From NCBI GenBank assembly GCA_951406725.2, contig OX597833.1, forward strand, positions 43,958,001 to 44,022,000: a DNA stretch of 64,000 nucleotides. Reading direction: 5' to 3'. The position numbers were made by a program, and so were the translations under genes. Shown piece after piece: positions 2,034-44,679 of this stretch (position 1 is the first letter of the stretch; every line of letters begins with the position of its first letter). The notes beneath the pieces are model-generated. The model did no database searches, had not been told where the DNA came from, and saw nothing but the letters and a program-made list of their open reading frames with translations. The stretch comes from Octopus vulgaris (Eukaryota).

Positions 2034-2357
2034 CTTTTAAAGCTTTAACCTTTGAAGATTCGAGATTTGTTTTACATGAGTAATATGCCGCATCATCGCA
2101 AGTTGGATTAAATTTCCAGCAGGTAACCTCATCATTTTTAATATGATCTAGAGTACAGTCAAAACCCTTTCGCTTGATCACTGGCAGAAACTTCCTTTCC
2201 TCCTCGACATAATGAGTTTTGAAAACGATATAATTCAGATTTTGAACGAGAGCAAAGTAAAGAACATTTTTTAGATTATACCGACATGTTATAGTCATTC
2301 CAGTCGTGTATCCAAAATCAATAGTTTCAGAAGGTTTCGTATCTACAATCTCCATAG
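2034..2357 (-). CDS. Ig-array gene 1, Ig1 (V-like) exon, 324 nt, phase 1-1
   Basis: Acceptor tctttctctacag (2358-2360) and donor G|gtcagt (2033). Translation: (P)MEIVDTKPSETIDFGYTTGMTITCRY...KGFDCT...VTCWKFNPTCDDAAYYSCKTNLESSKVKALK, with B-strand Cys and a DxAxYxC F-strand motif. Two paralogous exons with identical splice signals occur in the window. Confidence 0.88.
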
Positions 2358-2424
2358 CTGTAGAGAAAGAAACATACATCAGAGACAGATGTTATAAAAC
2401 AATATATATATATATATGTAGTTA

Positions 2425-2533
2425 CAGAAGAGAGAGGAAGGAAAAAAAGGGAGAAAGAAAAGAAGGAGGAGGAGGAGGAGGAAGAGGAAGTGGAAGAGGA
2501 GGAAGAGGAAGAGGAGGAGGAGGAGGAGGAGAA

Positions 2534-2564
<31 letters not shown>

Positions 2565-2590
2565 AAAACGGAAGATGAGGAGAAGAAGGC
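2425..2590. repeat. (GGA/GAA)n purine tract next to the gene 1 Ig1 acceptor
   Basis: Direct reading. Tracts occur at the equivalent position at 17455-18090 and 44746-44817. Confidence 0.95.
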
Positions 2591-2681
2591 AAAACAGGAC
2601 TAATTAAAAATAACGGGTGTTCATTTGAATATAGATTACATTTATCCACAAATAAAACTTTGTAGTTAGTTTTTAATATTT

Positions 2682-3073
2682 ACTAGCAGTATTGCCCGGC
2701 GTTACTCGGGTTTGTTTCGACCCTTTAGAATTGGAATTTTTGAAAAGTAAAAAAATTTGCATTATGCTGCTTGTTAGTCTCTTTAAGTGAACATTTTTCT
2801 GGTTGAAATACACCGAAAAATGGCGACAATGCAGTCAAAAAAATCGTAAAACATAGGGATTTTCATAGAAAAAAAAGCACCTTTTTGATGTAAATAATTT
2901 TTGATGTTAACATGGTCCGATTTGAATTTTTTCTTCTCCGGAAAGAAGAGCAAGCCTTCTATCATACTCTCAATTTTGGTCAACTTACCCCGCAGGGTCT
3001 CGGAGGAGATAGTGTTAGTTGAAGGCTACCAAACCTGTCAGACACAGACAGACTTCAGCTTTATATATATAGA
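2682..3073 (-). mobile_element. Non-autonomous Helitron-like element
   Basis: Minus strand starts TCTATATATATAAA and ends with a cccgag..gccggg hairpin plus CTAG-T. It is absent from the homologous gene 3 intron (~44920). Related ends occur at 3741 and 16569. Confidence 0.7.
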
Positions 3074-3294
3074 TTATCATAATAGCATACATGTGCCGTC
3101 AAAAATGCCGACAGTTTTATTAATGATGGAAAATGGTGCATCAACACAGTGGGGAAACAGTTGAAAAGCAGAAAACAATCTAGTATATATATGCACATAC
3201 ACAGAATTGATGCACTTGGAGAATTAGATACGGTCGTAGCGTCTCAGTTGAAAATATCAGCTACATAATGTATCGGTGTGTATATGTATATATA

Positions 3295-3346
<52 letters not shown>

Positions 3347-3353
3347 CACACAC

Positions 3354-3397
<44 letters not shown>

Positions 3398-3708
3398 TTA
3401 TATATATATATATGTATATATATATATGCATTTATATACTTGGATACATAGATAGATACATATCTTTTATTTATGTATATACATAAATATACATTTATTT
3501 ATAGATATTTCTCTCTCTCGCTCTCTTGCTCACTCACTCTTCCTCTCTCCCTCTCTCTCTCTCTCTCTCTCCCTCTATATATATATAGACATACACACAC
3601 ACACACACATATATATACATAAAAACACATAAAATAAGAATGAAAAACACGTTAATGACAATTATCAGGTAGTCAGCATGGAAAAAAGCAATTTATATAT
3701 TAAATTAG

Positions 3709-3739
<31 letters not shown>

Positions 3740-3740
<1 letters not shown>

Positions 3741-4245
3741 CTAGCAGTATCGCCCGGCGTTGCTCGGGTTTGTAAGGGAAATAACTATATAAGCATTTTT
3801 AGAGAGTTACTTCCCTTATAGATGCCAATTCGGGCTTTCTTAGCCATTTCTGTTTTGGTGTCTTCAAACCATGAAGTCGTTGTTCTAAAAGAACGCTGGT
3901 CTCCTTGACAACGCATTACGACGTTGATTTCTTTACACTCCCTTCCCCACAGCTTCACGAGGGAGGGAAGGGGGAGAAGCAAACAGGTGCAGCTGTGAGC
4001 GTGGACGCCAACTCCGCCGCCATCGACACACGAAAAATTATGCATTAAAATGGAATAAAAAATGATGTTAAATTATTTTTAAAATCGTAGACTCATTGTT
4101 GACGCGCGCTAATAGCCAGACGGGCTCGATATGAATCACGACTATAAGATACCCGAATTTGGTTAAACTGCACCGCAAAATGTGGGAGGAGTTAGGAATC
4201 TAAATCGAAGGGGACATACACTCACACAACTAGAGTTTTATATAT
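3740..4245 (-). mobile_element. Non-autonomous Helitron-like element (same family as 16568-16945)
   Basis: Shares ctagcagtatcgcccggcgttgctcgggtttgtaagggaaataactata and the ggttaaactgca...gttaggaatctaaatcg blocks with 16568-16945. Confidence 0.7.
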
Positions 4246-4749
4246 ATATATATATATATATATACCTATTTCAAGGGAGAAAGTCAAAACAAGACTTATC
4301 ACCTCCATATTGAATTAATGTCCAAACATTACGAATCTACCGAAACGACTCCATAAATACATGCGATTGAAAGCGGGCTAGTGAGAGGATATTTAAAAAG
4401 ACACCACATCAATTGCAAATTAGCTAATTTCGAGATTAATATCTTAAAATCTTATGGAGTTTTTACGGTAACTTCGTAATGCTTAGACATCAATTCAGTA
4501 TGTACCCGAACTCTGTCATGTAGTCCCGTTCCGGTTTCGCCATATAGTACTCTTTACATTGTCGACAAGTTGTACAGTAAATTAAGTGTTTTGTTTTACA
4601 ATTCATGTTTGCATTGATTTTGAAAAGCACATTGCTTTTAAAAGAAATTTGTCCACCATCTTCAATGTATTCACAGGTTCCGCATCGAGGGTGCCTGCAG
4701 TTTTTAACTTACATTGTTTCAATGTTAGATGTTAATTTCACCTTCACTC

Positions 4750-4976
4750 TTTTACTCTTTTACTTGTTTCAGTCATTTGATTGCGGCCATGCTGCAGCAC
4801 CGCCTTTATTCGAGCAAATCGACCCCCAGGACTTATTCTTTGTCAGTCTAGTACTTATTCTATCGGTCCCTTTGCCGAACCGCAATGTTACGGGGACATA
4901 AACACACCAGCATCGGTTGTCAAGCGATGTTTGGGGTGGGGGTAGACAAATACAGACACACAAACACACACACACG

Positions 4977-5018
<42 letters not shown>

Positions 5019-5110
5019 CATATACGGTCTTCTTTCAGTTTCCGTCTACTAAATCCACTCACAAGGCTTTGGTTGGCCCGAGGCTATAGTAGAAGACACG
5101 TGCCCAAGGT
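4750..5110 (-). mobile_element. tRNA-derived SINE family B (CORE-like), 5' truncated
   Basis: Reverse complement of the 19079-19460 element. Confidence 0.85.
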
Positions 5111-5151
5111 GTTAGTTGAAGGCTACCAAACCTGCCATACACAGACAACTT

Positions 5152-5191
<40 letters not shown>

Positions 5192-5201
5192 CATACATAC
5201 A

Positions 5202-5232
<31 letters not shown>

Positions 5233-5725
5233 CTATACATATAAAACTCAACTTGTGTGTCTGTGTGTATATCTGTGTGTGTCTGTGTGTTTAACTTCCC
5301 GGCACATCTCCTAACTAACAAATCGTAGAACCACCAAAAGTGGGTCACTTAAAGTTTAGGCGAATGAAAATTGAACTGCGCTATTTCCGTTCCGAAATTC
5401 ATTTCGCAAGTGCAAAAATCGATAATGTGTTTGTTATCCCATGCATTGAATAGTGAACTTTACTCAGTCAGCTGTTTGACGTGAACTGTGTTCACCACGC
5501 GTGCAAGCATGCGTAAATTACATGAAAAATAAAAAATCAATATATAAAAACGAATCGCCGTAAACATTGTAGAAATTCGGCAAAGAAATGAATTTTCGGG
5601 ATGTAGCCTGGAGGGTTTTTCGTATTAATCGTTTTGACTTTGTGAACACATACCAATTGTTTTCATTAAATTTTTAATGCTTTGAATTAAATGTGACCAT
5701 TTTGCAAAGCCGGGCAATAATGCTA

Positions 5726-5726
<1 letters not shown>
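5233..5726 (+). mobile_element. Helitron-like non-autonomous element
   Basis: Starts TCTATACATATAAAA followed by a (GT)-rich tract and ends gcaaagccgggcaataatgCTAG-T. Confidence 0.55.
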
Positions 5727-5823
<97 letters not shown>

Positions 5824-5837
5824 ACTCTTTTACACTT

Positions 5838-6215
5838 TATACTCTTTTACTTGTTTCAGTCATTTGACTGCGGCCATGCTGGAGCACCGCCTTTAGTCGA
5901 GCAAATCGACCCCGGGACTTATTCTTTGTAAGCCCAGTACTTATTCTATCGGTCTCTTTTGCCGAACCGCTAGGTGACGGGGACGTAAACACACCAGCAT
6001 CGGTTGTCAAGCAATGCTAGGCGGACAAACACAGACACACAAACATATACACATACATATATATACATATATACGACAGGTTTCTTTCAGTTTCCGTCTA
6101 CCAAATCCACTCACAAGGCATTGGTCGGCCCGGGGCTATAGCAGAAGACATTTGCTCAAGATGCCACGCAGTGGGACTGAACCCGGAACCATGTGGTTGG
6201 TTCACTCCCGCGCCT
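5838..6215 (-). mobile_element. tRNA-derived SINE family B (CORE-like)
   Basis: Near-complete reverse copy of 19079-19460. Confidence 0.88.
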
Positions 6216-6729
6216 ATATATACATATATATATGTATATATACATATTTATAAAAGAACGATATTATTTCTGAAAATAATAACGTTAGTGGCCGCGAGCG
6301 TAAAGACATATAGGCAAATTAATAATCATGTATATAAGATATATAAATATATTCATTTTTCTGATATAATTATTAATTAGGGATCGTTTAATTTGTCTCA
6401 CAGATTTTTTAATTATTTTTTTTAAGCAAACACTTTGAAATTTTGTATACTGGTGGAATTTCTCACCTAGAACACGGTCTACATTGAACATTTTTGGCAA
6501 TATTTTGTATTTCAGAAGATATTTCGTGTTTGAGTTGTCGGATTTTGGGTAATTTTTGCCAATCAACGACGTGTATTCAGTTGAAGAAAGCTACTGCTGT
6601 TTGCGATAGTCATCGAAGAGGAACAGCTTTCGGGTTATCTCTATTAAATTTAACCACTCTGTTCTGTTTGTATGTCGAGCGATGTATGTAGATATATGTA
6701 GATGTATGCACATTATACATGTGCATATG

Positions 6730-6772
<43 letters not shown>

Positions 6773-6860
6773 AGAGTTCAGGAAAAAAAACAAAAGACGA
6801 AGATGGGTGGTGTACAAAACAAACAGATGTATTAGCATAACGTTCAGGAATTGAAAAAGT

Positions 6861-6896
6861 CTTTTACGTTTCGAGCCTACGCTCTTCTACAGAAAG
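6861..6896 (-). ncRNA. Minimal type-I hammerhead-like motif, family C (core CUGUAGAA)
   Basis: Minus strand: cttt-CTGTAGAA-GAGC gtag GCTC-GAAA-cg-TA-aaag. Stem I 4 bp, stem II 4 bp, palindromic ACGT stem III. Lies in a dispersed repeat also at 31403, 36549, 54817 and (decayed) ~50670. Confidence 0.55.
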
Positions 6897-6969
6897 GAAC
6901 ACAGAAAGAGACGAGGAGAGAAAAAATTGTGTGTAGTGGCTACCGAATGTGCGTGTGTGTGTATGTGTA

Positions 6970-7024
<55 letters not shown>

Positions 7025-7906
7025 CATAAGCATATATACATATATATAACATATGCATATATACATATAAATAATATAAATTTCTATTTGAAATATATAT
7101 TTTATATAGATAGATTGAAAGATATGTGTGTGTGTTTGTGTCGTCGCGCGCGCGTATAATTTTTTTGGCACAATGAGAATATGACAATTATTGTGTAGGA
7201 TGAAACGCATTCATATTTGGTCTCATCCACATTTGGTATATATATTTACCCTGGATCAACATCAAGAAATTCCGCTGCGTACACACACGCACGCAGCCGT
7301 TCTAGAATTTGGACCTTGAGATCTCCATTTCCAGCGACTTCGAGGGCCACCTCCCAGTGGTGTCGGGCGTCAACGAAGAGCCCTCGACTACAACAAAACG
7401 ACCAAAGTTTTTCTTTTTCCAAGGTCTGGGGTCTCCCGCCCCTAAGCCCTAGACCATCACCTAGTCACCCTTACCCGTCTTGTTGCTTAACAACAACAAC
7501 AACAAACACGCACGCATACACACACACATACACACATACACACACAAACACATACGCACAAATGTACACGGGTGCCGTAAATTAAAATCATAGAATCACA
7601 CACCTGTATGAATTGGATGCCCAACTTTCCCTGTTAACTTAAATGTAATCTTTCTTCGACGGGTTCTACTCTCTATATTTTATGATTAAGAGTTTAATTT
7701 TTTATTATATATTCGCGGACAACCGTGGCTATCCCCATTAGCTCGTTATAACCAAAATACATTGAGCATGAACAACTTGACTGGAAGAACTCAGTATATC
7801 TAGAGTGACATCATCTTTTTTATGCATGTACTTTGATGTATCACAAAAGGCACAGTTTGATGGAACACAACTAGATGCACAAAATCCTACCTATAAGAGA
7901 CAGTTG

Positions 7907-8341
7907 GGATCTTTTCGGTTTGAACGGCAGTTTTTAAATTTTTTTCCACGTAACTAAACACTTTTAAACTTCGTATACTGGTAGAATGTGTTTATAAAAC
8001 ATCTTTTTCTCTTGGCTTTATTGCGAAAATTATATAGTTTGTAAGATATTTGTTGTTGTTTTTTCTTCAATTTCTGCAACTTCAACCAATCGATGACATC
8101 TATTAAGGTAAAAAACATTCTGTGCCGTATGAATATGTCCCTCGTTTAAGAAACAGATTGGGTTTATTTACATTTGTTAACAAAAAAAAGATAACCTTCC
8201 CCCCACCCTTAACACTAACCCTAACTAACACTAACCCCAAAACAGATTGAAATGCAATAGATCGATACTAGGATCATAATTATGGGTGACAATTTCATAT
8301 GACATCGCTAGAAAAAACTGCCGTTGAAACCGAAAAGATCC
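7907..8341 (+). mobile_element. MITE with GGATCTTTTCGGTTTGAACGGCAGTTTT TIRs and 8-bp TSD (Merlin- or hAT-like)
   Basis: TIRs at both ends, perfect flanking duplication GACAGTTG (7899-7906 and 8342-8349), internal CCCTAA-like repeats. Confidence 0.9.
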
Positions 8342-8408
8342 GACAGTTGCAGAATGGTTGTCGAAATGATCGTCACACTTGTGATAAATCTATCTTCCGT
8401 TTCCTTCA

Positions 8409-8472
<64 letters not shown>

Positions 8473-8705
8473 CACATGCATATATATGGGAATATGTATG
8501 TATGTATGTCGAAGAAAGAGAAAGAGCCGGTTTCTAACCTAGATCTAAGGCTCCTTCATTGGAATTTCAACATCGACAACAGGAAGTTTTTGTATGTATG
8601 TATCTATGTGTGAATGTGCATATGCAGATTTGTTTGTTTTGCTTTATGTATTATTCTAATGCATATAGTTGCATATCTAGACATGCTCATATGTATATAT
8701 ATATC

Positions 8706-9136: not shown

Positions 9137-9185
9137 GGGTCGAAATGTGAGAAGCCATCATCAGTATCATCATAGCTAACAACAT
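9137..9185 (-). CDS. Ig-array gene 1, signal-peptide exon (coding part)
   Basis: ATG at 9185-9183 gives MLLAMMILMMASHIST plus 1 nt, then donor gtaagt (49 nt, phase 1). Joins the Ig1 exon at 2357 in frame. Paralogous exons at 23849 and 52517. Confidence 0.82.
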
Positions 9186-9869: not shown

Positions 9870-9900
<31 letters not shown>

Positions 9901-9974
9901 TAGAGATAGAGATAAAGAGAGAGAGAGAGAGAGTAAGAGAAAGTGAGAGAAACGGTAAAAAACATCTGCTTTCT

Positions 9975-12144: not shown

Positions 12145-12199
<55 letters not shown>

Positions 12200-12664: not shown

Positions 12665-13178
12665 ATGTATAAGTGTCAATTAATTGTGGCCGTTTTGAGC
12701 GACTTCTTCAATTTATTAATGAAAGCATTACCTCATTATAAAGAAAACTGTTCTCATCAGATGACCACACAGACCTCAAACATAGAGGAAAAGTTAGATA
12801 TTTAAACTTATTAATATCATCAATAGAGAACAAATATTTACAATGATTCTACAGCTAAATTATTTGGCAGATTCTGCTATAAGCTTTAAGCTTATCTTAT
12901 AATAATTTTACTTGTTCCGTTACTTAGCCCGTCGGTAACATTTTCATGTGATTAGAGAAAGGGAAGCAGATTCTGCCAAAAACATCAGCGGTGGAATCAT
13001 TGTAAATATTTGCTCTCTATTGATGAGATTAATATGTTTAAATATCTAACTTGTCTTTTATGTTTGAGATGTATGTGATCATCTGATGAGAACGGTTTAC
13101 TTTCTAAAGATGTAATGCTTTCATTGATGAATTAAAAGAGTCGCTCGAAACGGCCGTAATGAATTAACACTTATACAT
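12665..13178. repeat. Long imperfect inverted repeat (~210-bp arms, ~85-bp spacer)
   Basis: atgtataagtgtcaattaattgtggccgttttgagcgac...ggcagattctgct mirrors agcagattctgcc...gtcgctcgaaacggccgtaatgaattaacacttatacat. Confidence 0.9.
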
Positions 13179-15727: not shown

Positions 15728-16033
15728 TTGCTTAGTTGAAGAGTAATTTAGTTAGAGTTTGGCCATTCACAAAACATGTGATGTTTGTTACGCCAAAGTC
15801 CTCCTGTTTTACAGTGTATTTATAAATTGACGCTACTGGAGTTAAACACTCGTCACGAGATGGAACTTTAATGTTATCCTCATGTAAACTTGTATCATCA
15901 CGCGTTCTTTTAAACCATAGAAAGTCTTTAATGCCAAAAGGTGCTGGGACATATGCTAAACATCTGAAGATCGCTGTCTTGCCCACTACAATGGGTAGGT
16001 TAACAACTGTTAGTTTATCTAGGTGAGATCGCG
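15728..16033 (-). CDS. Ig-array gene 2, Ig2 exon (306 nt) with in-frame TAA at 15734-15732
   Basis: Acceptor ttttcttttcag and donor gtaagt at 15727. Translation: ARSHLDKLTVVNLPIVVGKTAIFRCLAYVPAPFGIKDFLWFK...DECLTPVASIYKYTVKQEDFGVTNITCFVNGQTLTKLLFN*. Same length (306 nt) as the gene 3 Ig2 exon. Confidence 0.82.
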
Positions 16034-17058: not shown

Positions 17059-17376
17059 CTTTTAAAATCTTAGTTTCTGAAGTTTGGGCATATGCTGTAA
17101 ATGAATAGCTTGCGGCATCCTTACATGTGGGGTTAAATTTCCAGCAGGTAGTCACACCTCTATAATCAGTGATTGTAGAACACTCGAAACCTCTACGCGC
17201 CTCTTTATAATATGAGCGTGCATCCCAATGATATCTATATGTGAAAACAATATCGTTGTTTTGCATGAGGTGAAAGTTAATAGGACCTAGCAGCTTAAAC
17301 TGGCATATTATAGTTATTCCAGCAGTGTTTCCAAATTCAATATAATGAGGAGGTGAGATGTCTAGAATTCTAATAT
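17059..17376 (-). CDS. Ig-array gene 2, Ig1 exon (318 nt, phase 1-1); F-strand Cys replaced by Phe
   Basis: Acceptor tttttttactacatag and donor G|gtcagt. Translation: (Y)IRILDISPPHYIEFGNTAGITIICQFKLLGPINFHLMQNN...RGFECST...TTCWKFNPTCKDAASYSFTAYAQTSETKILK. Confidence 0.85.
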
Positions 17377-22043: not shown

Positions 22044-22074
22044 ATTGAAAAACACGGAATGTTCTTAATCTGAC

Positions 22075-22930
22075 CAGACTGAAACTAAAAACGGTTTTTA
22101 CTTCAGTCATTAGGGAACTTTCGTACGCTGACGATTGTGATCTTGTCAGTCATTCTGATACAGGTCTGCAATCTCTTGTATCTGCGTTTGTTGGCTTGGA
22201 GTCACGCGTTTGGTGCCAGCGACATATAAATAAGAATACAAAGCTGGCTCTTTACAAATCATTTGTCTTACCATCCCTGTTGTATTCTTGTGAAAGATGG
22301 ACTTGTTATGAAAGGCATTTTCAATTGTTAGAACAATTCCTCCAAAAATGCCTTCATCGCATTTAAAACGTTAAATAGAGATATTTTACTCTAAAAACAG
22401 ATCTCCTTGTACCTGCTGGCATCACCTCAATTAAATCTATGATTTTGAGGAACCAAATGAGATGGTGGGCCGAAACAGCTGTTTTATGGTGAGCTTCCAG
22501 AGGGGAAACGCTATAAGCGTAAGCCTAAAAAAAGGTTTAAGGACGGTATAAGGACTACTATGAAGTCATTTGGAATGGATCCAGAAGACATAGAAATCCC
22601 TGCTTCGAACTGAGTTGGATGGTGAACAAAAGTGTGGAGTGGAGTAAAAGCATTTCTAGAGACCAGGACAACACACGTAAGTCTCAAAAGAGATCTAAAA
22701 AAGAATGTTACAATCGAGAAGGTGAATGACAATGACCTTTTTCTGTGTACAGTTTGTGACAGACCATACTTTTCTTTAACTGGGTTTAAATTTCATTTGC
22801 GATCATGGAAAACGAACCTCCACCAACAATTCTGCCTATATATCTGTGCATACCTTTGAATGTAGTGTATGCCAGAAGGTCAGCAAATCTAACGGAGGCC
22901 TCAAAAGACATGTTAAGATCCACAAAGATT
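22075..22930 (+). mobile_element. Degenerate RTE-clade LINE 3' fragment
   Basis: IRELSYADDCDLVSH, LPSLLYSCERWT, QLFYGEL..GKR..RKPKKRFKD and C2H2-like CTVCDR. Homologous to 59690-60650. Confidence 0.8.
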
Positions 22931-23848: not shown

Positions 23849-23897
23849 AGGCCATAGTGTAGGAAGCCATCATCACTATCATCATAGCTAGCAACAT
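23849..23897 (-). CDS. Ig-array gene 2, signal-peptide exon (coding part)
   Basis: MLLAMMIVMMASYTMA plus 1 nt, donor gtaagt, 49 nt. In frame with the Ig1 exon at 17376. Confidence 0.8.
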
Positions 23898-32060: not shown

Positions 32061-34102
32061 AAGAATGAGAGCAGAAATAGGTGTGCAGCTGTAGAGGAGA
32101 TATATGGCTTTCCAGCCAGAGGCAAGAAGAAAGGAAAGAGAGAGAGAGAGAGAGAGTAGGAAACAGCAAAAGGGCAAGAGATAGCGAGAAAGAGAGAGGA
32201 AGTAGGAAACAGCAAAAGTGCAAGAGAGAGAGAGAGAGAGAGAAAGAGAGCAGGAGAGAGATGGTGAAGTACCAGTGTATATTTATCCGTAATTCTAAAG
32301 TTGCCAATTTTATTGCATTATTCTACTCATAACTGGCATTACTATTAGCATTACAAGTATGTTCACTATTTTTACTACTATCTTTATGATATTAATTTCA
32401 TTATTATAATTACTAGAACTAATATTATTGCTGCTCCTACCATCATTAATACGGTAAATGCTGATGCGGAGAGTTGGCACAATCGTTACAACAACGGAAC
32501 AAATGTTTATCGACATTTCTTGTCTTTTACCTTCTGAGTTCAAATATCATCGAGCTCGAATTTGTCTTTCACCATTTTGGGATCAATAAAATAATAACCA
32601 ATTTAGAACTGGCTTAGATAGAATCGACTATCCCCTTCCACAATATTTGGCCTTGAAACCATTGTAGAAAGGACTATTACTGTAATTATTAACATTATTA
32701 CTATTACCACTACTGAGTCGAACGTCGGATATATCTTGAGTAGTTGTGTTGGTGTCACATATGAAATACTTTCCATTCTCTCGCACATTATCTACCAATA
32801 CATCGACTCCTGGTCTATGTGCAGCATGTAGAGTCATTTACATTGCAATTATAAATATTAGAAAAGACCTGTTGAGTAAGATTTTATTATTCTATTGGAG
32901 GTATATTTTATAATAGGGTAGTTGCGTAAGACACATTAACGATATGTCTATTAAAATGTTTTATGATATCTAATAGATTTACTGAAGAGTTTATCTAATG
33001 CAGCGAAGAAAGCGGAAGCAATCAGAGGGAATACATCAAGGTTAAATACTGGATATATCATTTTTTTTCTTACGTAATCCTTTACCGATTTTACTATTCT
33101 TGTTTTCCCTACTGTGTGCAGTGTTTTGCTTATACTTTACACCACTACCTAATGTTTTCATACAGCTGCTAGTTGTAGTTCCGTTACTTAAGTATTTTCG
33201 CTCCTTATCATTTCTTAACATCCCTCAATTTCCATCATTCCCCTCTCTTGCTATTAATTATAGTCAAGGTAGCGCGTTCGAATAGTTAGGTTCTCATAGT
33301 AGGGCACATGTCCTATATATACATACGTGTTTCACCAATCATGCTTATTGTTAATTATATCCTCATTTATTCCGTCTCCAGACCTACACCTTTGTCTACC
33401 AATTGTAGTATTCAAGTGTTCCTGCAAGAACTGATTCACTACTTTGAATATAACTAATTTTTCTACATATCTCATTGGATCCCATTGGGATTGTTCGACC
33501 AAAATTTTCAAAAACTTTACACATTTTCCTATACCATCTTAGTTCCGCTACACTATACCTGTCAACGTAAAACAATGTCATTTCTCTTTATACTTCTCCT
33601 AACCTAGGGAAAATAGTTACTAGTTGCAAAACGATAGAGATTGTGTACTTATATACGAAAAATTGTTTTATTATATCTTTCTAGATTCATGTGTATCAGA
33701 GCATATGTATCCATATACACACAAACACACATTAAGATATGTTTTCATTATCAGAAATCAACAAGCACTAACTGCAGAAGGCACACAATATATAGTATGG
33801 AGTCAAATATTTATTTCCGGGGAAAATGTGAGTTAATTTTCGCTTGGAAGTTTCGAAATAACCTGTAAAAAAGAAAGCATTGCCAATTTAGAAAGAAACT
33901 ATACGTGTATGTAAGTATGTATGAATGTATGTATGTATGTATGTATGTATGTATGCACGTATGTATGTATGTATGTATGTATGTATGTATGTATGTATGT
34001 ATGTATGTATGTATGTATGAATGTATGTATGTATGTATGTATGTATGTATGTATGTATGTATGCATGCACGATGAGTTTTGAATAAAACCAATGCAGTAA
34101 GC

Positions 34103-34480
34103 TGTTATGATGTGGTGTTTTCCATATCTATAATGTGTGGTGCCTCTTGTGACTGTAGCTTTTGTATCTACTATAGTGGACATTTTTCTGGTATCGGATA
34201 CAGTTTATCTCTTCTATACCGGAAGTAGTAATACATCGCTTCGTCTATCGTGCTATTGCTGATAGCTCTGCAAAACAGCGACTTTGAACCGCCTACCATC
34301 ACTGTTGACTCGAACTCGACTATAACCCTTAACTGACACTTAACTCCAACAGAGAACTCGTGCAACGATTCTACAACGACTGATAGACGACTACCCGTAC
34401 TGGTTGACGTCGTCGCACCTTATAGTGGCTGAGTCATACCATTTGTCCCGTGGGAGGGGTGTACCATTTCCACTACGATA
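34103..34480 (-). mobile_element. Solo LTR (duplicated at 61233-61609)
   Basis: TGT...ACA termini (intact in copy 2) and a near-perfect 5-bp TSD taagc/taatc. Related LTR-start fragments at 25841-25960 (+) and ~42010-42062 (-). Confidence 0.65.
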
Positions 34481-34513
34481 TAATCGTAAACTTAATAATA
34501 TTATATAGAAGAA

Positions 34514-34745
34514 CGGCGGCGAGCTGGTAGAACCGTTAGCACGCCGGGCGAAATGCGTAGCCGTATTTCGTCTGCCGTTACGTTCTGAGTTCAAATTCCG
34601 CCGAGGTCGACTTTGCCTTTCATCCTTTCGAGGTCGATAAATTAAGTACCAGTTACGCACTGGGGTCGATGTAATCGACTTAATCCCTTTGTCTGTCCTT
34701 GTTTGTCCCCTCTGTGTTTAGCCCCTTATGGGCAGTAAAGAAATA
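34514..34745 (+). mobile_element. SINE family A, full length, with TSD-like flanks atattatatagaagaa
   Basis: Consensus match. The flanking duplication is on both sides, and the insertion is shared with copy 2 at 61647-61877. Confidence 0.9.
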
Positions 34746-34840
34746 TATTATATAGAAGAATAACAAAATCAAAGGAACGAAAATGAAAAATACAATACTA
34801 ACCACTTTTTGATTCTGCTGGGGCTTGTTTTCCGAAATCC

Positions 34841-34920
34841 TTAATGAAAATGGCCAATAACAAGCAGTGTTGCTGCAAATTTCAAAATCTTAGTAATAAT
34901 ATTTGCATCAGATAATTTAT
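34841..34920 (-). CDS. Ig-array gene 3, last coding exon: short hydrophobic C-terminus (GPI-signal-like)
   Basis: Acceptor tttttttctttctattacag; phase-1 reading (D)KLSDANIITKILKFAATLLVIGHFH*. A donor-like gttagt lies 38 nt after the stop (34802) and an acceptor-like tttcttttttacag at ~33863, suggesting a 3'UTR intron. Confidence 0.65.
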
Positions 34921-36313
34921 CTGTAATAGAAAGAAAAAAAGCACATTTCATTTTAATTTTGGTACAAGACCAAAAGCTTTGGTGAAGGTGGACATCGATT
35001 ACATCAACTCCAGTATTCAATTGGTGCCTAATTCATTGACTCTGAAAGAATGAAAAGTAAAGTCAACTTCGGTGGCATTTTAACTCAGAAAGCCGGACAA
35101 AATGCCGCCAAGCATCTTTTACGGCGTGCTCATGAATCTACCAGCTTACAGCCTCAGAAACAGTAATCAGCGATAATGGAGATTTACATAAACACATGGA
35201 AACAATAAATAATCAGAAGAAAATCAAAACAACAAAGTTCCCAATTAAAAGGGAAACGCTACCCAAGGGTAACCAAGTAACCTCACAGTAACCAAGTAAT
35301 CCTGAGTCACCCTGTTCACCAGGAATACTGTTGTGTTTCTCTCTCCTCCTTGCTTCTGTAACTACCTGGGCACGCTTAGGTTACGACAATTCACTCGAGC
35401 CATTCTTGTTATATTCATCCACAGTGTAACAGTTTTACTGGGAGAAAGGACCTTGCTCTCCACGCTCACTTTCCTTTTAAACATGAAAAGTTAATGAAGG
35501 TTTGGTCTCTTTCTCATTAATCGCATCATCTTTCACCATAAGCACCTAATAGAGGAAATCTGCCTACCCTTCAAAATCAAAGGAATGCAAGGAAGCAATC
35601 TTCACTTTGGAGTCGACCTATAACCAGATCCGTCCGAGAAGTGATTGCAGCTGGTAGACATAACTCCAGAAATCAACGATGCTCAAGCACTATACTAATA
35701 CGTGTACAAAATCTTCATCATGCAATGTGCATCAAGGGCAAGAGCAGCTGAGGGGAATATCATGCCGGTACATTTTTTCCGCCGAGGTCGACTTTGCCTT
35801 TCATCCTTTCGGAGGTCGATTAAATAAGTACCTGTTACGCACTGGGGTCAGCATAATCGACTTAATCCGTTTGTCTGTCCTTGTTTGTCCTCTCTGTGTT
35901 TAGCCCCTTGTGTGTAGATGGTCTCGGTGCAACGTCCGCTAAGACCAATACCCTGCTGACAGAGGTGTGAGCGCCTGATGTCACACTAGGTGTCAGGTAC
36001 CCTCCATAGGTCTATGCTTGACCCAAGAATGTCGTGTATATATGTGAGTATGCGCAGTGTCAGTGTATGTGTATGAATGTGTGTGTGTAGGGATGTATGT
36101 GTGTGTGAGTGTGTGTAGCGTGTGCATGTATGTATGTGTAGATGTGTATATTAGTGTTTGTTCCCCACCATCACTGGAAAACCAGTGTTGGTTTGTTTAC
36201 GTGCCCACAACGTATCAGTTCGGGAATAAATACGACAAAGACTATTAGAAAATGGCCCAGCATGGCCACCATCCAGTAACTGAAAGAAGCAAAAGTTAGA
36301 AGATTAAAGATAC

Positions 36314-36346
36314 CTGCATTGTCTCTGATTGCTTGCTGCTCAGTAC
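36314..36346 (-). CDS. Ig-array gene 3, 33-nt linker micro-exon
   Basis: atttttatttgaag|GTACTGAGCAGCAAGCAATCAGAGACAATGCAG|gtatct = (G)TEQQAIRDNA, phase 1-1. The paralogue at 63617-63649 has a canonical tttctag acceptor. Confidence 0.6.
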
Positions 36347-36548
36347 CTTCAAATAAAAATTTAAAATACATAAACAAAATAATATATAGAAATATAATAT
36401 TTAAGTTTTAATCTTAGTTTTTAATGCAGTTTTGTTTTCCAAATTGGAAATAAAATCAAAATGTTTATCATTCAAAATGTGACCGCGTGTGTACCGTTGG
36501 CGATTTTTTTCCTCCGTCTTCCCTTCTCTGGATCTTTCCTTCTCCTAT

Positions 36549-36583
36549 GTTTCTGACGAAGAGCTCCGCGCGAAACGTTAAAC
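36549..36583 (+). ncRNA. Hammerhead-like motif related to family C (core CUGACGAA)
   Basis: gttt-CTGACGAA-GAGC tcc GCGC-GAAA-cg-TT-aaac. The core is deleted in the duplicated copy at ~63853. Confidence 0.5.
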
Positions 36584-36680
36584 CCGCCTTCATCCCTTCC
36601 TTCCCTAGCGTCCAATAATACTATATTTGTTCCACGTCCTCGCGTTGTTGTGTTTTCTCATTGTGTTTTCATGTTTGGAT

Positions 36681-36720
<40 letters not shown>

Positions 36721-38340: not shown

Positions 38341-39814
38341 GTCTTGTATATAATTGTACATTCTTTCCTATTTTTAACCATTTCCTCTGAGGCGGTTCAA
38401 TTCCACACTGAATCCTTCGTGACTCATCATTGTCATGTAATTTCTTCATTTTTCCAATTCGATTTGATATTCCTTACACTTTGCGATTGCTGCGAATTTT
38501 TTGTTCTCTATTATACTTTCCTCGTTCAGTTTCTCTATTGTACTCCACGAAATCTCTGATGACGACGATTGCTCCGACTGTTCCGACGAGGACAGCTCTT
38601 AGTAGCTGATATCTTCCTCTTCTGACATCTTTTCTTTTTATTCAGTCTACCTTCTTCTATGAGGAGGGAAAGCACAAATAAACTGCCGCAAGACGGCACA
38701 AACTTAAGTGTTCAAGGAACACTACAACAATTAAACAACAATATAACGCCAGAAAATAATAGAACTTTAGCTCACCAAATTTTTCTCTACTACTGACTGA
38801 CCTTGTTTCTCTATTGCCTACAAGGGCATACAGAGAGGGGACGAACAAGGACAGACTAGACAGCACAAGTGGGACAAACAACATAAACGGATGAATGAAA
38901 TGAAATTATATAAAAATGAAGATTTAATGGCTACTACTCGACCCCACTTCCGTGTTTACCATTTTAACTATATTTTACACTATTTTTTAATCCAACGTTT
39001 ATCCGAATAATTATCTTAGCAAATTGAAAGCGGTTTCAGTTTTTCGAAATCCAACACAGGAGGCAGAGGATCGTGTCTTATTTCTACCCCTAATGGGTTT
39101 ACTTCGTCCCCAGGTGTACCATTAAAAGTTTGCTTTTAATTTTTTATAGTTTTTCCTGTCAATTAAAATTCATCCCATACCTGGGTCTCTCATGTTTTCT
39201 TCTTCTATATCTCTAATTACTGCCACCATCTTCCCTATTTTTTCTTCTATGGCTGCATTCATCCAGTAGTGTGTTATAAATGCTCTGTTTTTATAATTGT
39301 TTTGTGTTTCTTGTGTGTCTGCTTGTATGCCTGCTCGTGCGTAATCACTTAGTGAATCTGTACCGTCACTACGTGAAGTGTTTGTGAGTGCTTGTGAATA
39401 ATTTATTGGTGTTACCGGTCTGTATGTACGTGGTGGTGTAAATTTGTTGGGGATTCTGGACTGTCCGGTATATATTTTCGTGTGTTAGTCGCTGTGTGGG
39501 CGTTTGTGTGTCACTCAGTTACTTTGTCTTCTTTTTTTAGCGTTCTTAGAGGGTGGGGAGTTCTTGATGTCTTTTCCTGTAGTGTTTCTTGGACTTCATC
39601 TGTATTTACCTCCTCTGTATCTTCCTTCAGCTTCTCGTTGCAACTGCTTTCCTCCTGTCTCACCCTCATTTGTGTTTGGTTATCGAGAAGGGGGCAATTT
39701 GCCTTAATATGGTCGACTTTTTCAATTTTATCAAGACATAATCCTTCCAGCCCTTTATTCACGTGGTCTAACGCCATAAACGGCACATTCCGTTTGGCCT
39801 AAAAACAGGTATTA

Positions 39815-41700
39815 ATGAGTTTCCTGGTCCATTTCTACCAGTCCAAAGCTTTTGACAAGGTTGAACATCGGTATCCGGTGCTGGTCCTCTGCTTTCGGGG
39901 TCGGCCTCGTCTTTAGAGGGTGGATCATTGCTTTATACAGTAACATTGACTCGATAGTTCGGGCGAACGGGTTCTTCTTGAAGCCTATCAACATCAAGCA
40001 CTCTGTTCATCAATGGTGTCCTCTCTCCCCACTTCTGTATGTATTGGCTCTAGAGTTCTTGCTGCGGAAGTTGGAGAGATTAAAGTGCATCCCACGAGAT
40101 CTAGGTTGCAGTGGGAAGGTTTCGGCGTATGCGAATGACATCACCATCATAGTGTCCGAAATGGTACACCTACAGAGGGCAGGCAACGCCATTAAAGGCT
40201 ATGAGGCAGGAGCAAAAGTTAACTGGAATAAGTCAGTCGGCTTGCAACTCGGCACCTGGCAAGGCAAGACGATACCTCCCAACAACATCGTAGGGCGTTG
40301 GACGGAGGGGCTGGTTAAAATGTTAGGGGTTTAGTTTGGCCAGATCTCCAGATAATGAATTGGAGCGAGGTGACGAGCAGGGTGATCCAGCTAACTCAGA
40401 CCTGGTCTCAGTGGCGGCTCTCCCTGAAAGGAAGGGCAGAGGTCGCAGTTGTGTTTATCGGTTCCGTGATTAACTACCGCCTAACCGTCGTGCCTTGCCC
40501 CCGTTCGTGGCTGATCAATTTAGAGGGGCTGCTCTTCCGTTATTTTGTGGAGTAGAAGTCCTCTTGTAAAGCGCTCTGTCTGCTGCCAGTACCCGCTAAA
40601 TGGTGGGCAAGGGATGTCTTGGCTGTTGATGCGCAGACGTGCGCTGATGCTGAGGTATCTGTGTCTCTACCTGGATAGTGAACAGGTGTTGTCTCCGTTC
40701 GGTCGGTCGTTATATCCTAAGCTTACTAGTTTGGGTGAACTAGGACCTTGGGTCAAGTGTAGACGAAAGTTGAGTGCTTGGCAAGCGAAGTGTTGTGAGG
40801 CACTCAAGCTTCTCTGTCAACGCCAGCGGTGGGGAGGGGGTTCCACCTCGTATTTTTATAGAGGGTTAGTTGAGGTCCACTGTGACGACGATGTGGGGGA
40901 AGACTCTAGGCTTCGATGATGGTCAACTAGCCTGTCTGTTCCGAAGGACATTTGGGCCAGGACCCTTGGATAACTTCCAAAGATTCCCCGCCTGGCAGTG
41001 TTACTGAGGAGCCTTACCAATTCGCGATAAACTCGCAAAGCATGGTGCACCTTGCGCACCCGCGCGCCCAAGATGCGAGCAGGACAGGGAAACTGTTCTG
41101 CACGCGATTGTACAATGACCCAAAATTTCCGAAATGTGGGTTTACCTTGAACACACGCTGACGCGGCTGGGAAGAGTACAACTGTCTTTCGAGTCGATTG
41201 TATAGATTGTTCCTGCCTCCTCTTTTAACAAAGAAGGCATGGCTCGTTTTCTCATTGTGGTCGCTATACCGAAAGAAGTAGTATGGAAGACCCACGTGAA
41301 AAGAATCGTGAGAGGCATTTTCATCTCCAGCCTTGGACTGGTTAATTTCCTCATCTACCATCTTAAGAGAAAAATTAGGGTGGAGATAAAATGCCTGTCA
41401 CCTGATTTATACGGAAAACGATGGAAGGCTGTAGCGAGTTTGTTGAGAATGAAGAATCCGCATAGTATATCCATAAGATTATACAAAAAGGTTACAATGG
41501 TTGCATGGGTTTGCGGGGTCGAAGCGAAACCCGTCCCCCATTTCATTGTATGGTTATTGTTTGGTATCATCCTATTTATATAAATTCTTAACGTAAATTT
41601 TTAACTATTCATCTATTCTAAAATCATTCGTTTTATCCACTCCTCCCTCATTTGTATCGTCCCCTCTATGTTTGGCCCCTGTGGGCAATAAAGAAATAGT
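39815..41700 (+). mobile_element. Tx1/L1-clade LINE, 5'-truncated, degenerate RT to 3' end
   Basis: QSKAFDKVEHR, SVHQWCPLSPLLYVLALE, SAYANDITI, GAKVNWNKS, WSQWRLSLKGRA, and a C-terminal CPRCEQDRETVLH zinc-knuckle-like segment. Many stops and frameshifts. Confidence 0.85.
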
Positions 41701-42508
41701 CGTTCTTGTTCTTTGAGTTGCTGTTGGTGACTGCAGGGGAATGGTGGGACAGCGTAGGGCAGGGTGGGAGTAGGGTAGAAATTCACATTTTCGCCTTGAT
41801 TTCTTCTTTTCCCTCTCTTCCGTTTCTTTGGTGCCGTATTCCATCCATGTTTCTCCTCTGCCACCTGATTATCTTCCTCCTTCTTCGGTTCCTTTTTGCT
41901 CACATATGACATCGCAAGCGGTGGAGGTGCGCTTTCTTTCGTTGGTTCCTTTGCGGCAGGTGGAGTGTATCCTGTTTTATGTGCCTTTTTGGCCGCATTT
42001 AAAGCAACAGTGAGTCATACCACTTTGCCACGTGAAACGGGGTGCACCATTTCTCTACTACTGTGTGTATAGTGTGCGCGTGTGTGTATGCATGTGTGTG
42101 TGCGTGTGCGTGCGTCCCTGCGTGGGTACGTGTGTACGTGCGTTCGTGCATGTGTATGTACGTATTTATAAAGAGAAAGTTCGCTTTTCCGTGCTGTACG
42201 GACCTTTTCACTACAATTTCCGCCATAAGGAGGACTTTATGCAAACCATGTCATATAGAGTGCATTTAAAGGATGCAGCTTCTTATATCAACTTAATGTC
42301 TCTAGAATCTTAAAAAAGAAAATATATAAATTTGGTTAATCGTAATGATATACCTGTCAAGGATAAATATAATTGTCAATATAACCGTGAGTGGATGTAC
42401 AAATTTACTGAAAGGTGTAATTTAACCAGAAATATTGTTTCATGAGACGTTAATGTACAAGAATATATAAAGGCGTTAAGGAAGATAACACAAAGAAAAT
42501 TTGTTTAC

Positions 42509-42814
42509 CTGTTTTGCTGGTGAGCTGTAGAGTGCGTGATTCACTGTATACAGAACATGAGACGCTTGAGTTACCAATATCCCCCTCTCTTATAACGAAT
42601 TTCTTAAGTGACGCTGCTGGAGATAAACACATTCCATGAGGTCGAACATCCACTTCCTTCACATTTATCCATTTGTGGTGTTTTGTCTCATGACTCCATA
42701 AAAAGTCAGTAGCGCCAAAAGGTGCACCGATGTATGCTGAACATCTGAAGATCGCTAACATGTTTACTTTAGCGGGCGGGTTAAGAAATTCAAGTTTCTT
42801 CATGTAAGATCTCA
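42509..42814 (-). CDS. Ig-array gene 3, Ig2 exon (306 nt, phase 1-1)
   Basis: Acceptor ttttcttttcag and donor G|gtaaac. Translation: VRSYMKKLEFLNPPAKVNMLAIFRCSAYIGAPFGATDFLWSHE...GMCLSPAASLKKFVIREGDIGNSSVSCSVYSESRTLQLTSKT (C..W..C Ig pattern). Confidence 0.88.
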
Positions 42815-42849
42815 CTGAAAAGAAAATAAAAGAAAAAAACGAAAAGGCG

Positions 42850-43018
42850 AAGTAGTGGCTGTGTAGTAAGTAACTTGCTAACCAACCACATGGTTCGGGG
42901 TTCAGTCCCACTGCGTGGCATCTTGGGCAAGTGTCTTCTGCTCTAGCCCCGGGCCGACCAATGCCTTGTGAGTGGATTTGGTAGACGGAAACTGAAAGAT
43001 GCCTGTCTTATATATGGA

Positions 43019-43102
<84 letters not shown>

Positions 43103-43300
43103 TCCCCCTAGCACTGCTTGACAACCAATGCTGTTGTGTTTACGTCCCCGTCACTTAGCGGTTCGGCAAAAGAGACCGATAGAATAAGTACTGGGCTTAC
43201 AAAGAATAAGTCCCGGGGTCCATTAGCTCGACTAAAGGCGGTGCTCCAGCATGGCCGCAGTCAAATGACTGAAACAAGTAAAAGAGTAAAAAGAGTAAAG
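42850..43300 (+). mobile_element. SINE family B inserted just upstream of the gene 3 Ig2 acceptor
   Basis: Consensus match to 19079-19460. A further 3' fragment lies at 43715-43850. Confidence 0.88.
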
Positions 43301-43874
43301 AGAATCGAAATATGCTTATCTTCGAACAAAGGGCCTCACAATAAAAGAATAGTTTCTCTAATGTAAACTACAATCTTCATACAAAACTAAAACATTTGAC
43401 AACACTCCAATTATTGTTAATCCTGGACTTTGGGAACTGTTGCTTGGAAGTGGTTAACTGTTTAAGCAGTGCTAAGGCTGTGTGGGGCCAAGTCACTAGC
43501 AGTAACTCCACAACAAATGAATGACACATTCATACACGTGTATATTTACTTACACATAAGCATGTATTTGTGTGCAATTATATATATTTTCATGTGTGCG
43601 TGTATGTATGTGTGTGTGTGCGCATGTATGAATATGTGGACACATATATAGATACATATATATACACATACGCAAACATATTTACATACATTCATGCATG
43701 CATATACAGACATGCACTTAGCGGTTCGGCAAAAGAGACCCATAGAATAAGTACTGGGCTTACAAAAAATAAGTTCCGGGGTCGATTTGCTCGACTAAAG
43801 GCGGTGCTCCAGCATGGCCGCTGTCAAATGACTGAAATAAGTAAAAGAGAGAAAAGAAAGAGAGGGATTTAAGG

Positions 43875-44225
43875 ACATGCTGGACGGTACCTACACCAGA
43901 ATGTTACGTGCAGTGCCCTACATTTAATGGAGGGAGCACCCAACTAAACAAAGGTTATATGGGAATGTATTAACTTTCTCATCAATCATCTAAGAGCGGA
44001 CATTGGGTTTTGCTGACCATTGCTGGAGAAGTAAAGAAGAACTTGTGAGTAACGAGTTGTTGTGGGCACCAAATCACGGTACCACAGCGACTGGACGACC
44101 ACGGAAGACATATATACAACAGCTTGCAGAAGATGTTGCATGCCAAGTTGAAGGCCTAAAAACACTAATGGAAGATCGGGAGTGATGGAGAGAGGTAGTC
44201 AGGCTGGCCTGGGCAATTGACCTGA
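43875..44225 (+). mobile_element. RTE-like LINE 3' fragment
   Basis: LDGTYTRMLRAV...GFADHCWRSKEELVSNELLWAPNHG..GRPRKTYIQQL...MEDRE.W. Confidence 0.7.
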
Positions 44226-44346
44226 CTGGATGAAACTTGTGTTCGATAGTGCAATAGAAACACGCAATAGAAATAAAAATAAAGACAATGGAGTTGAATA
44301 CGTGCAAAACAAGAAACGGAAGTAAAAATAGAACGAGTAAACTGAC

Positions 44347-44679
44347 CTCTTACAACTCTAGGTTTTGAAGATCCTTCATTTGTTGAACATTTGTAGTATG
44401 TCGCATCCTCACAAGAGGGATAACGTTTCGTGCAGGTAATCACACCTTTCTTATCTGCAGGGAATGTAGGTACAGTACAGTCAAAACCCTTTTTCTTGGT
44501 TACTACCTCAAAAATTGCTTTCTTACATTGAAAATCGATTTGAACAATAACTTCACTGTGATTTCGCACGAGAAAAAACTGAATAAGATTTTTTATAGCA
44601 TACCGACATTTTATAGTTAAGAATGTTCTGTTTGCAAAATCAATATTGCTTGAAGGTAACACATCTGCAATCTCAATAA
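44347..44679 (-). CDS. Ig-array gene 3, Ig1 exon (333 nt, phase 1-1)
   Basis: Acceptor ttcttctatacag and donor G|gtcagt. Translation: (F)IEIADVLPSSNIDFANRTFLTIKCRYAIKNL...KGFDCTV...ITCTKRYPSCEDATYYKCSTNEGSSKPRVVR. Confidence 0.88.

What the first reader, a model, noticed from the sequence alone, without database searches (positions are those of the whole stretch)
2034..44679. Ig1 exons look more diverged than their flanking introns, with a hypervariable block
By manual alignment, gene 1 and gene 3 Ig1 share about 45 of 111 residues (~40%). There is no identity over ~16 residues after LV[QR]N (LNYIVFKTHYVEEERK vs HSEVIVQIDFQCKKAI), the C'-C'' region that forms ligand-contact loops in V domains. 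Exon lengths differ by whole codons (324/318/333 nt). Adjacent non-coding intron blocks still align at roughly 80% by eye (2602-2683 vs 44844-44922; 3087-3160 vs 44933-45003). Coding divergence exceeding intron divergence is the usual signature of diversifying selection on recognition molecules.
Basis: partly seen in the sequence, partly recalled or inferred. Interest (0 to 1): 0.72.

Follow-up and report, generated by a model that had tools for sequence, protein, structure and literature searches.

The report
Fast-evolving octopus antibody-fold gene cluster
These three genes belong to a tandem family of more than 40 octopus genes whose first domain, predicted to fold like an antibody variable domain, changes amino acids almost three times faster than the neighbouring introns change bases in the youngest copies, a mark of positive selection that likely reflects an arms race with microbes or parasites.

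Summary
The window holds three members of an octopus tandem family (28 Ig1 exons in this 0.8-Mb cluster; 45 matches genome-wide). Gene 1 and gene 3 Ig1 share 45 of 107 residues and 65% of bases, against 77-87% in the intron blocks. That pair alone is not significant (omega 1.75, LRT 3.0), and one intron block is an old dispersed repeat. The family settles it. Across 25 Ig1 exons, 30-40% of codons have omega 2.4-3.1 (LRT 80-95; 14 null simulations gave at most 2.4). In six young paralogues whose intron aligns fully, non-degenerate Ig1 sites change 2.8 times as often as intron sites (60/209 vs 143/1384), while Ig2 sites (23/197) match the introns. Seven of 14 best-supported sites lie at the C'-C'' hairpin. 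Ig2 is also selected at family depth. Ig1 is predicted to fold as a V-set domain that Pfam misses. The family has secreted, probably GPI-anchored, and one transmembrane member with an ITIM-like tail, recalling vertebrate CEACAMs. Pathogen recognition or decoying is the likeliest role, but no expression or binding data were obtained.

The parts
9137..9185 (-). Gene 1 signal-peptide exon (coding part, phase-1 donor)
2034..2357 (-). Gene 1 Ig1 exon (324 nt), predicted V-set fold
2173..2208 (-). Gene 1 residues 50-61, C'-C'' hairpin: 7 of the 14 sites with posterior >0.95 in all four models
2191..2238 (-).
1..63 (-). Start of gene 1 Ig2 exon; it runs out of the window and ends in an in-frame stop just before the donor
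2596..2685 (.). Intron block 1, found only in the cluster (82-88% among paralogues); counterpart 44838-44923
3067..3273 (.). Intron block 2: old dispersed repeat at the same position in paralogues; counterpart 44914-45119
23849..23897 (-). Gene 2 signal-peptide exon
17059..17376 (-). Gene 2 Ig1 exon (318 nt); lacks the F-strand cysteine
15728..16033 (-). Gene 2 Ig2 exon with a stop just before the donor; the O. bimaculoides orthologue model ends at the same place, so likely a secreted form
52517..52562 (-). Gene 3 signal-peptide exon
44347..44679 (-). Gene 3 Ig1 exon (333 nt), member of the young subfamily with omega 4.3-5.2
42815..44346 (-). Gene 3 intron 2: aligns over its whole non-repetitive length in six paralogues (p=0.038); the unbiased neutral baseline
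42509..42814 (-). Gene 3 Ig2 exon (306 nt)
36314..36346 (-). Gene 3 short linker exon 4 (33 nt)
34844..34921 (-). Gene 3 last coding exon: hydrophobic C-terminus, likely GPI-anchor signal (judged by eye)
61977..63649 (-). Last two coding exons (63617-63649 and 61977-62054) of the neighbouring paralogue, whose Ig exons lie beyond the window

Best explanation
The genes form a birth-and-death tandem family of octopus two-domain Ig proteins whose V-like first domain is under positive selection, and they likely act as microbe- or parasite-binding receptors and decoys. Shown: gene structure (signal, Ig1, Ig2, then a stop or short hydrophobic tail), cluster size, and excess amino-acid change at the C'-C'' hairpin and other membrane-distal loops. 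Predicted: V-set fold for Ig1 and a linear V+C ectodomain. Inferred: a founder-like transmembrane member with a conserved tyrosine-motif tail, about 300 kb away, signals or adheres; duplicates that lost the tail became GPI-anchored (gene 3 type) or secreted (gene 2 type); each new copy is driven to a new binding specificity by ligands that themselves change, as in vertebrate CEACAMs. The ligand is not known.
For: Selection: M2a vs M1a LRT 95/80/95 under three frequency models; M8 vs M8a 73; 14 null simulations LRT 0-2.4; M0 likelihoods match IQ-TREE within 0.13 units. It holds without the C'-C'' block, without the young subfamily, with one gene per subfamily, in each third of the domain and on gap-free columns. 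Young paralogues: Ig1 pN 0.106, pS 0.028, introns 0.038-0.044; non-degenerate sites 60/209 vs 21.5 expected at composition-matched intron rates, p=1e-13. Selected sites favour distal loops (8 of 20 vs 2 of 25 proximal, p=0.014, post hoc). Fold: Z 12.7, rmsd 1.8 over 95 residues to a VHH domain. Mixed anchorage: stops before the Ig2 donor in at least 8 of 30 exons, hydrophobic tails, one transmembrane gene whose tail is 98% identical to O. sinensis while its V exon is 59% identical. CEACAM precedent: PMC8860441 (passages).
Against: No tissue, induction or ligand data were obtained. The same selection pattern is expected of reproductive, salivary or self-recognition proteins. Ig2 is about as fast as Ig1 at family depth, so selection is not limited to one binding face. 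The ITIM-like motif is six residues, sits in an exon absent from one O. sinensis isoform and from the Argonauta model, and was matched to a recalled consensus. No activating (ITAM or charged-transmembrane) partner was seen. The site models are my own code with NEB posteriors, not codeml/BEB.
Confidence: 0.5

Rival explanations
1. The family is a self or cell-identity code: members would bind each other, or their own alleles, selectively, as Hydractinia Alr proteins or insect Dpr/DIP proteins do, and selection favours new non-cross-reacting specificities.
For: Clustered V-set genes that Pfam misses, with an ITIM-like tail, resemble the 41-gene Alr family (bioRxiv 10.1101/2022.03.04.482883, abstract). 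The ectodomain aligns end to end with nectin-3, butyrophilin and PD-L1 (rmsd 4.1-5.6); atlas neighbours include fasciclin-3 and nectin-2. The transmembrane gene's V exon differs sharply from the O. sinensis model.
Against: Gene 1 Ig1 shows no high allelic polymorphism: contigs of three other DNA runs carry 0, 0 and at most 2 other letters over 349-455 nt (contigs drop variants, and one run may be the source sample). One O. sinensis orthologue is 99% identical in Ig1. Many members appear secreted. Neural wiring codes are usually conserved (recalled).
Confidence: 0.2
2. They are gland or gamete products (spermatophore, oviducal gland, egg coat, saliva or mucus) diversified by sexual conflict, species recognition or prey and symbiont targets rather than by pathogens.
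For: Secreted and likely GPI-anchored forms dominate the cluster; best O. bimaculoides matches are only 50-83% identical; divergence is between paralogues and species more than between alleles at gene 1. Reproductive and venom proteins often show omega above 1 (established knowledge, recalled).
Against: Nothing ties the family to these tissues. More than 40 copies and a transmembrane member with a conserved tyrosine-motif tail fit a receptor/decoy system better (inference).
Confidence: 0.22
3. There is no adaptive signal: relaxed constraint, AT-biased mutation, gene conversion in introns and hand-picked intron blocks create the appearance.
For: The gene 1/gene 3 pair alone is not significant; one intron block is a repeat; recombination is detectable; 37-57% of sites fit omega=1 in the family-wide M2a models; broken copies exist.
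Against: Relaxation cannot push replacement sites to 2.8 times the intron rate while four-fold sites (4/46) and Ig2 (23/197) stay at it; composition was matched. 26 of 28 full Ig1 exons are intact, with whole-codon indels and near-invariant cysteines. Null simulations do not reproduce the LRT.
Confidence: 0.04

Closest known systems
Vertebrate CEACAM family (PMC8860441, passages read)
   Same: Tandem family; N-terminal IgV-like domain plus constant-type domains; transmembrane and GPI-anchored members; positive selection concentrated in the V-like domain; exchange of V-like domains between paralogues (suggested here at the transmembrane gene).
   Different: No sequence relationship was found. 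Only one constant-type domain here, extra cysteines, selection also on domain 2, and no microbial ligand known. It is an analogy, not membership.
Hydractinia Alr family (bioRxiv 10.1101/2022.03.04.482883, abstract and outline read)
   Same: About 40 clustered invertebrate IgSF genes with V-set domains lacking diagnostic motifs, recognised by structure prediction; ITIM-bearing tails; exon shuffling.
   Different: Alr proteins are transmembrane with further I-set and FnIII-like domains, and Alr1/2 are highly polymorphic self markers. Here most members lack a transmembrane segment, have two domains, and gene 1 shows little allelic variation.
B7/butyrophilin/nectin-type V+C ectodomains
   Same: The predicted two-domain model aligns over 185-235 positions with PD-L1, butyrophilin and nectin-3.
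   Different: Sequence identity is 12-16%; a shared fold shows neither homology at family level nor function.
Molluscan FREP/VIgL proteins (PMC11999971, PMC13428168, passages read)
   Same: Diversified mollusc proteins with two N-terminal Ig domains, implicated in parasite recognition.
   Different: No fibrinogen or lectin domain follows Ig2 in these genes.

Membership tests
Ig V-set domain | Beta-sandwich with strands A,B,C,C',C'',D,E,F,G | tested here: met
   AlphaFold2 model pLDDT 88; best matches VHH, Fv and TCR V domains, Z 12.7, rmsd 1.8 over 95 residues. Prediction, not a solved structure.
Ig V-set domain | B- and F-strand cysteines and D-x-x-x-Y-x-C motif | tested here: met
   C24, D88 and Y92 invariant; C94 in 23 of 25
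Ig V-set domain | C-strand tryptophan | tested here: not met
   No Trp in strand C of any of the 25 exons; Phe/Leu instead
Ig V-set domain | Match to Pfam V-set or Ig profiles | tested here: not met
   No Ig-clan hit for the 6 sequences scanned, at E up to 1 or 5
CEACAM | Sequence homology to vertebrate CEACAM N-domains | tested here: not met
   The 40 profile hits hold no CEACAM among those named (19 of 35 new hits looked up; octopod proteins, two fish V-set proteins, two unnamed); CEACAM N-domains match only by fold, Z 11.3-11.4, below the top V domains
CEACAM | Transmembrane ITIM-type member plus GPI-anchored members in one cluster | tested here: inconclusive
   Transmembrane gene with ITIM-like motif and hydrophobic-tailed members present; no GPI predictor or signalling test was run
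CEACAM | Binding of pathogen adhesins by the V-like domain | not testable with these tools
   Needs binding assays
Hydractinia Alr | V-set + I-set + FnIII-like ectodomain with transmembrane segment | tested here: not met
   Two Ig domains only; one intron-bearing transmembrane gene (plus its retrocopy) among those examined
Hydractinia Alr | Extreme allelic polymorphism | tested here: inconclusive
   Gene 1 Ig1 nearly invariant in three other runs, but these are contigs, one gene only; the transmembrane gene was not tested
FREP/VIgL | C-terminal fibrinogen or lectin domain | tested here: not met
   Genes end in a stop or short tail after Ig2; no such Pfam hit in the fused 726-aa model that spans genes 1 and 3
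Dpr/DIP/Beat wiring codes | Sequence homology and heterophilic binding network | not tested
   No direct comparison was made; recalled as a lead only

The most novel reading that the evidence does not exclude
This is an undescribed octopod germline repertoire of V-type recognition proteins, a convergent CEACAM-like system: one ITIM-bearing receptor that exchanges its V exon with neighbouring copies, surrounded by more than 40 GPI-anchored and secreted decoys whose antibody-like tip loops are in an arms race with pathogens. It would be a candidate diversified immune-receptor family for cephalopods.
Probability: 0.35. Interest if true: 0.8.

Novelty: new variant of a known kind. Interest (0 to 1): 0.62.

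Why it matters
I found no description of a diversified Ig receptor family in cephalopods in the searches run, and these genes are annotated only as uncharacterized or hypothetical, partly as fused models, and carry no Pfam domain. A family of more than 40 V-type genes with omega of 4-5 in its youngest branch gives concrete candidates for how octopuses recognise microbes, parasites, mates or self. Ranked residues and secreted members make this directly testable. Positive selection on V domains in tandem clusters is itself a familiar pattern; what is new is the family and its receptor/GPI/secreted layout in a mollusc.

Tried and rejected
Pfam: no Ig hit for 6 sequences. Homodimer prediction for gene 1 Ig1: no answer, score 0.25 under the mark of 0.32; not evidence either way. 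Expression: no run on record as RNA was listed for the gene 3 stretch; one guessed-RNA run showed no cover on gene 1 exons; neither bears on expression. The read lay was swamped by repeats in intron 2 and did not include intron 1, so it gave no exon-versus-intron polymorphism ratio. IQ-TREE omega mixtures crashed, so only M0 likelihoods were cross-checked. No squid, cuttlefish or other mollusc homologue was named among profile hits; 16 of the 35 new hits were not looked up and these searches miss fast-evolving relatives, so the range is open. Literature: searches (term searches; 12 locus and accession ids) found no paper on the family; the library lacks most subscription journals. Supplements of PMC9712504: 3 files searched, 0 hits, 1 unreadable; marker tables not held could bear on expression. 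SPLASH preprint passages were irrelevant. Earlier scan notes: nothing. Rejected: the long open frame at 36174-36407 as gene 3's tail (only 33 nt are exonic); mutually exclusive V-exon splicing at the transmembrane gene (all five O. sinensis isoforms use one V exon); genes 1 and 2 as plain pseudogenes (open frames and cysteines largely kept; gene 2's stop position is shared with O. bimaculoides), though gene 1's stop was not checked in other species.
Full report
Setting. The window is G000:C20:43958001-44022000 of a 2.8-Gb genome. A database protein that contains gene 1's Ig1 letter for letter is named as Octopus vulgaris. Three minus-strand genes lie in it, each with a signal-peptide exon, an Ig1 exon and an Ig2 exon, all phase 1. 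Gene 3 goes on through a 33-nt exon to a hydrophobic last exon that looks like a GPI signal (by eye). Gene 2 has a stop just before the Ig2 donor and no such last exon was found; the O. bimaculoides orthologue model ends at the same position. Gene 1 also stops just before the Ig2 donor although a hydrophobic exon lies downstream.

The observation. Like for like, gene 1 and gene 3 Ig1 are 65% identical in bases against 87%, 86% and 77% in the intron blocks; third codon positions (73%) are more alike than first (59%) or second (65%). Two weaknesses are real. The pair alone gives omega 1.75 (dN 0.53, dS 0.30) with LRT 3.04 against omega=1, and none of the 12 pairwise domain comparisons among four neighbouring genes is significant. 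The longer intron block is an old dispersed repeat, while the shorter one matched only in the cluster. The repeat lies just upstream of Ig1 in 9 cluster copies, so it was duplicated with the gene; its divergence (0.28) agrees with dS, and both are well below dN.

The family. A genome search gave 45 matches among 60 scored candidates, 44 on C20 and one on C1 (a lower bound, and two rows are halves of one broken exon). I fetched 864 kb around the window and found 28 full Ig1 exons, 26 intact and 2 frameshifted, plus fragments, and 30 Ig2 exons examined, one frameshifted. One identical duplicate was dropped from each set, leaving 25 Ig1; one truncated Ig2 was also dropped, leaving 27.

Codon models. 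I wrote the models myself; their M0 likelihoods agree with IQ-TREE within 0.13 units on four checks. On 105 of 113 columns, M0 omega is 1.14-1.33; M2a puts 30-40% of sites at omega 2.4-3.1 and 13-14% near 0.05-0.1; LRT against M1a is 95, 80 and 95 under F3x4, MG3x4 and F61. M8 beats M8a by 73. Fourteen data sets simulated under the fitted null gave LRT 0-2.4. The signal persists on gap-free columns, in each third of the domain with its own tree, without the C'-C'' block, without the young subfamily, with 15 representatives, and in 11 Ig1 exons from the distant clusters on the same contig (22).

The cleanest test. Gene 3 has five intact close paralogues. Among these six, intron 2 aligns over its whole non-repetitive length, so nothing is hand-picked. 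Mean pairwise differences: upstream intron 0.042, intron 2 0.038, downstream 0.044 (flanks limited to homologous blocks), Ig1 synonymous 0.028, Ig1 replacement 0.106, Ig2 synonymous 0.045, Ig2 replacement 0.051. Minimum changes per site: Ig1 non-degenerate 60/209, intron 143/1384, Ig1 four-fold 4/46, Ig2 non-degenerate 23/197; the expectation for Ig1 at GC/AT-matched intron rates is 21.5 (p=1e-13). ML omega is 4.3-5.2 for Ig1 and 2.0-2.1 for Ig2 (eight sequences), so ML sees selected sites in Ig2 where the site count does not. Recombination is detectable (p=0.0125), but would not spare four-fold sites.

Where the sites lie. The Ig1 model (pLDDT 88) matches VHH, Fv and TCR V domains (Z 12.7, rmsd 1.8, 95 residues), although Pfam finds nothing and the C-strand Trp is absent. 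Fourteen sites exceed 0.95 in all four models: 2, 7, 16, 50, 51, 53, 54, 55, 57, 61, 71, 82, 98, 105; seven fall in residues 50-61 (p=9e-5). Naming strands by V-domain convention from the predicted secondary structure, this is the C'-C'' hairpin, the CDR2 equivalent. At 0.90, membrane-distal loops hold 8 of 20 sites and proximal loops 2 of 25 (p=0.014; boundaries set after seeing the data). The two-domain model of the O. bimaculoides gene 2 orthologue (pLDDT 91.5) is a linear V+C ectodomain like PD-L1, butyrophilin or nectin-3.

The receptor. About 300 kb from the window lies a transmembrane member. Its tail has several tyrosine motifs, one fitting the ITIM consensus as I recall it, and a C-terminus conserved in Argonauta. 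Against the O. sinensis model, the V exon in place is 59% identical, Ig2 95%, the transmembrane exon 100% and the tail exons 98%; an orphan V exon 45 kb upstream is 93% identical, and a broken V exon further up looks like a mosaic of both types. This suggests V-exon exchange, but an annotation or paralogy difference is not excluded, and 5 kb of the interval was not fetched. An intronless copy on C1 shows the same contrast against this gene: V 78%, Ig2 89%, transmembrane 91%, signal 95% of bases.

Alleles. Contigs of three other DNA runs carried 0, 0 and at most 2 other letters across gene 1 Ig1, and all three share one replacement in Ig2. One O. sinensis orthologue is 99% identical in Ig1, while best O. 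bimaculoides matches are 50-83%. Diversity here appears to lie between paralogues and species more than between alleles; contigs hide heterozygosity and only one gene was laid.

Mechanism. Shown: repeated duplication and positive selection on exposed loops. Inferred: loss of the signalling tail gives GPI-anchored and secreted copies that bind changing foreign ligands as receptors or decoys (0.5), on the CEACAM pattern of selection and domain exchange in the N-domain (PMC8860441, passages). Rivals are gland or gamete products (0.22), a self or cell-identity code like Hydractinia Alr (0.2; bioRxiv 10.1101/2022.03.04.482883, abstract and outline), and artefact (0.04). It works like these systems at most; it is not a member of CEACAM, Alr or FREP by the features tested.

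Novelty. Eight searches aimed at the family found no description. A 2025 review of invertebrate IgSF has no occurrence of 'octopus' or 'cephalopod' in its main text (PMC11999971, passages); the passages of a 2026 review of immune diversification mention cephalopods only for haematopoiesis (PMC13428168). Subscription journals and unseen supplements could hold a description. Verdict: real, well supported selection on an apparently undescribed octopod Ig family; function open.

Noticed in passing
L028:1429-2343 (G000:C1, about 165.12 Mb): Intronless retrocopy of the transmembrane gene: open through signal, V, Ig2 and transmembrane segment (303 aa), with the tail shifted out of frame. Its V part has diverged far more from the parent (78%) than the other parts (89-95%).
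   Followed up: partly
G000:C20:43.53-43.75 Mb (L133-L139, L151-L155, L167-L172): Transmembrane member with tyrosine-motif tail, preceded by an orphan V exon and a partial duplicate with a broken mosaic V exon; the O. sinensis model matches the orphan V exon, not the one in place.
   Followed up: partly
G000:C20:0.86-1.10 Mb and 2.88-2.94 Mb (L140-L150): Two further clusters of the family (14 Ig1 matches), with hydrophobic C-termini in database models; 11 tested also show positive selection (LRT 22).
   Followed up: partly
P0001, P0008, P0009: Public O. vulgaris-type gene models fuse several neighbouring paralogues into single multi-domain proteins (726 and 1202 aa); each paralogue examined has its own signal exon, so these look like annotation chimeras.
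   Followed up: partly
window 2034-2357, 17059-17376, 15728-16033: Ig1 has three extra conserved cysteines and Ig2 one extra; an extra intradomain and an interdomain disulfide are plausible but unchecked. Gene 2 and one other paralogue have lost the F-strand cysteine, which the O. bimaculoides gene 2 orthologue keeps.
   Followed up: no
cluster Ig2 exons, e.g. window 15728-16033: At least 8 of 30 Ig2 exons carry a stop within a few codons of a retained splice donor, at differing positions, suggesting repeated origin of secreted forms.
   Followed up: partly
window 33474-36683 vs 56065-56496 and 61199-63964: About 96% identical duplicated segment (87% in its last block) covering the last exons of gene 3 and of the next paralogue.
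   Followed up: no
window 55366-55665; 12665-13178: A 300-bp near-perfect palindrome (98%) and a 500-bp imperfect inverted repeat (79%), probably miniature transposons.
   Followed up: no
window 57259-60181 (+), 22049-22363 (+): Open frames that look by eye like LINE endonuclease and reverse-transcriptase fragments; not searched.
   Followed up: no
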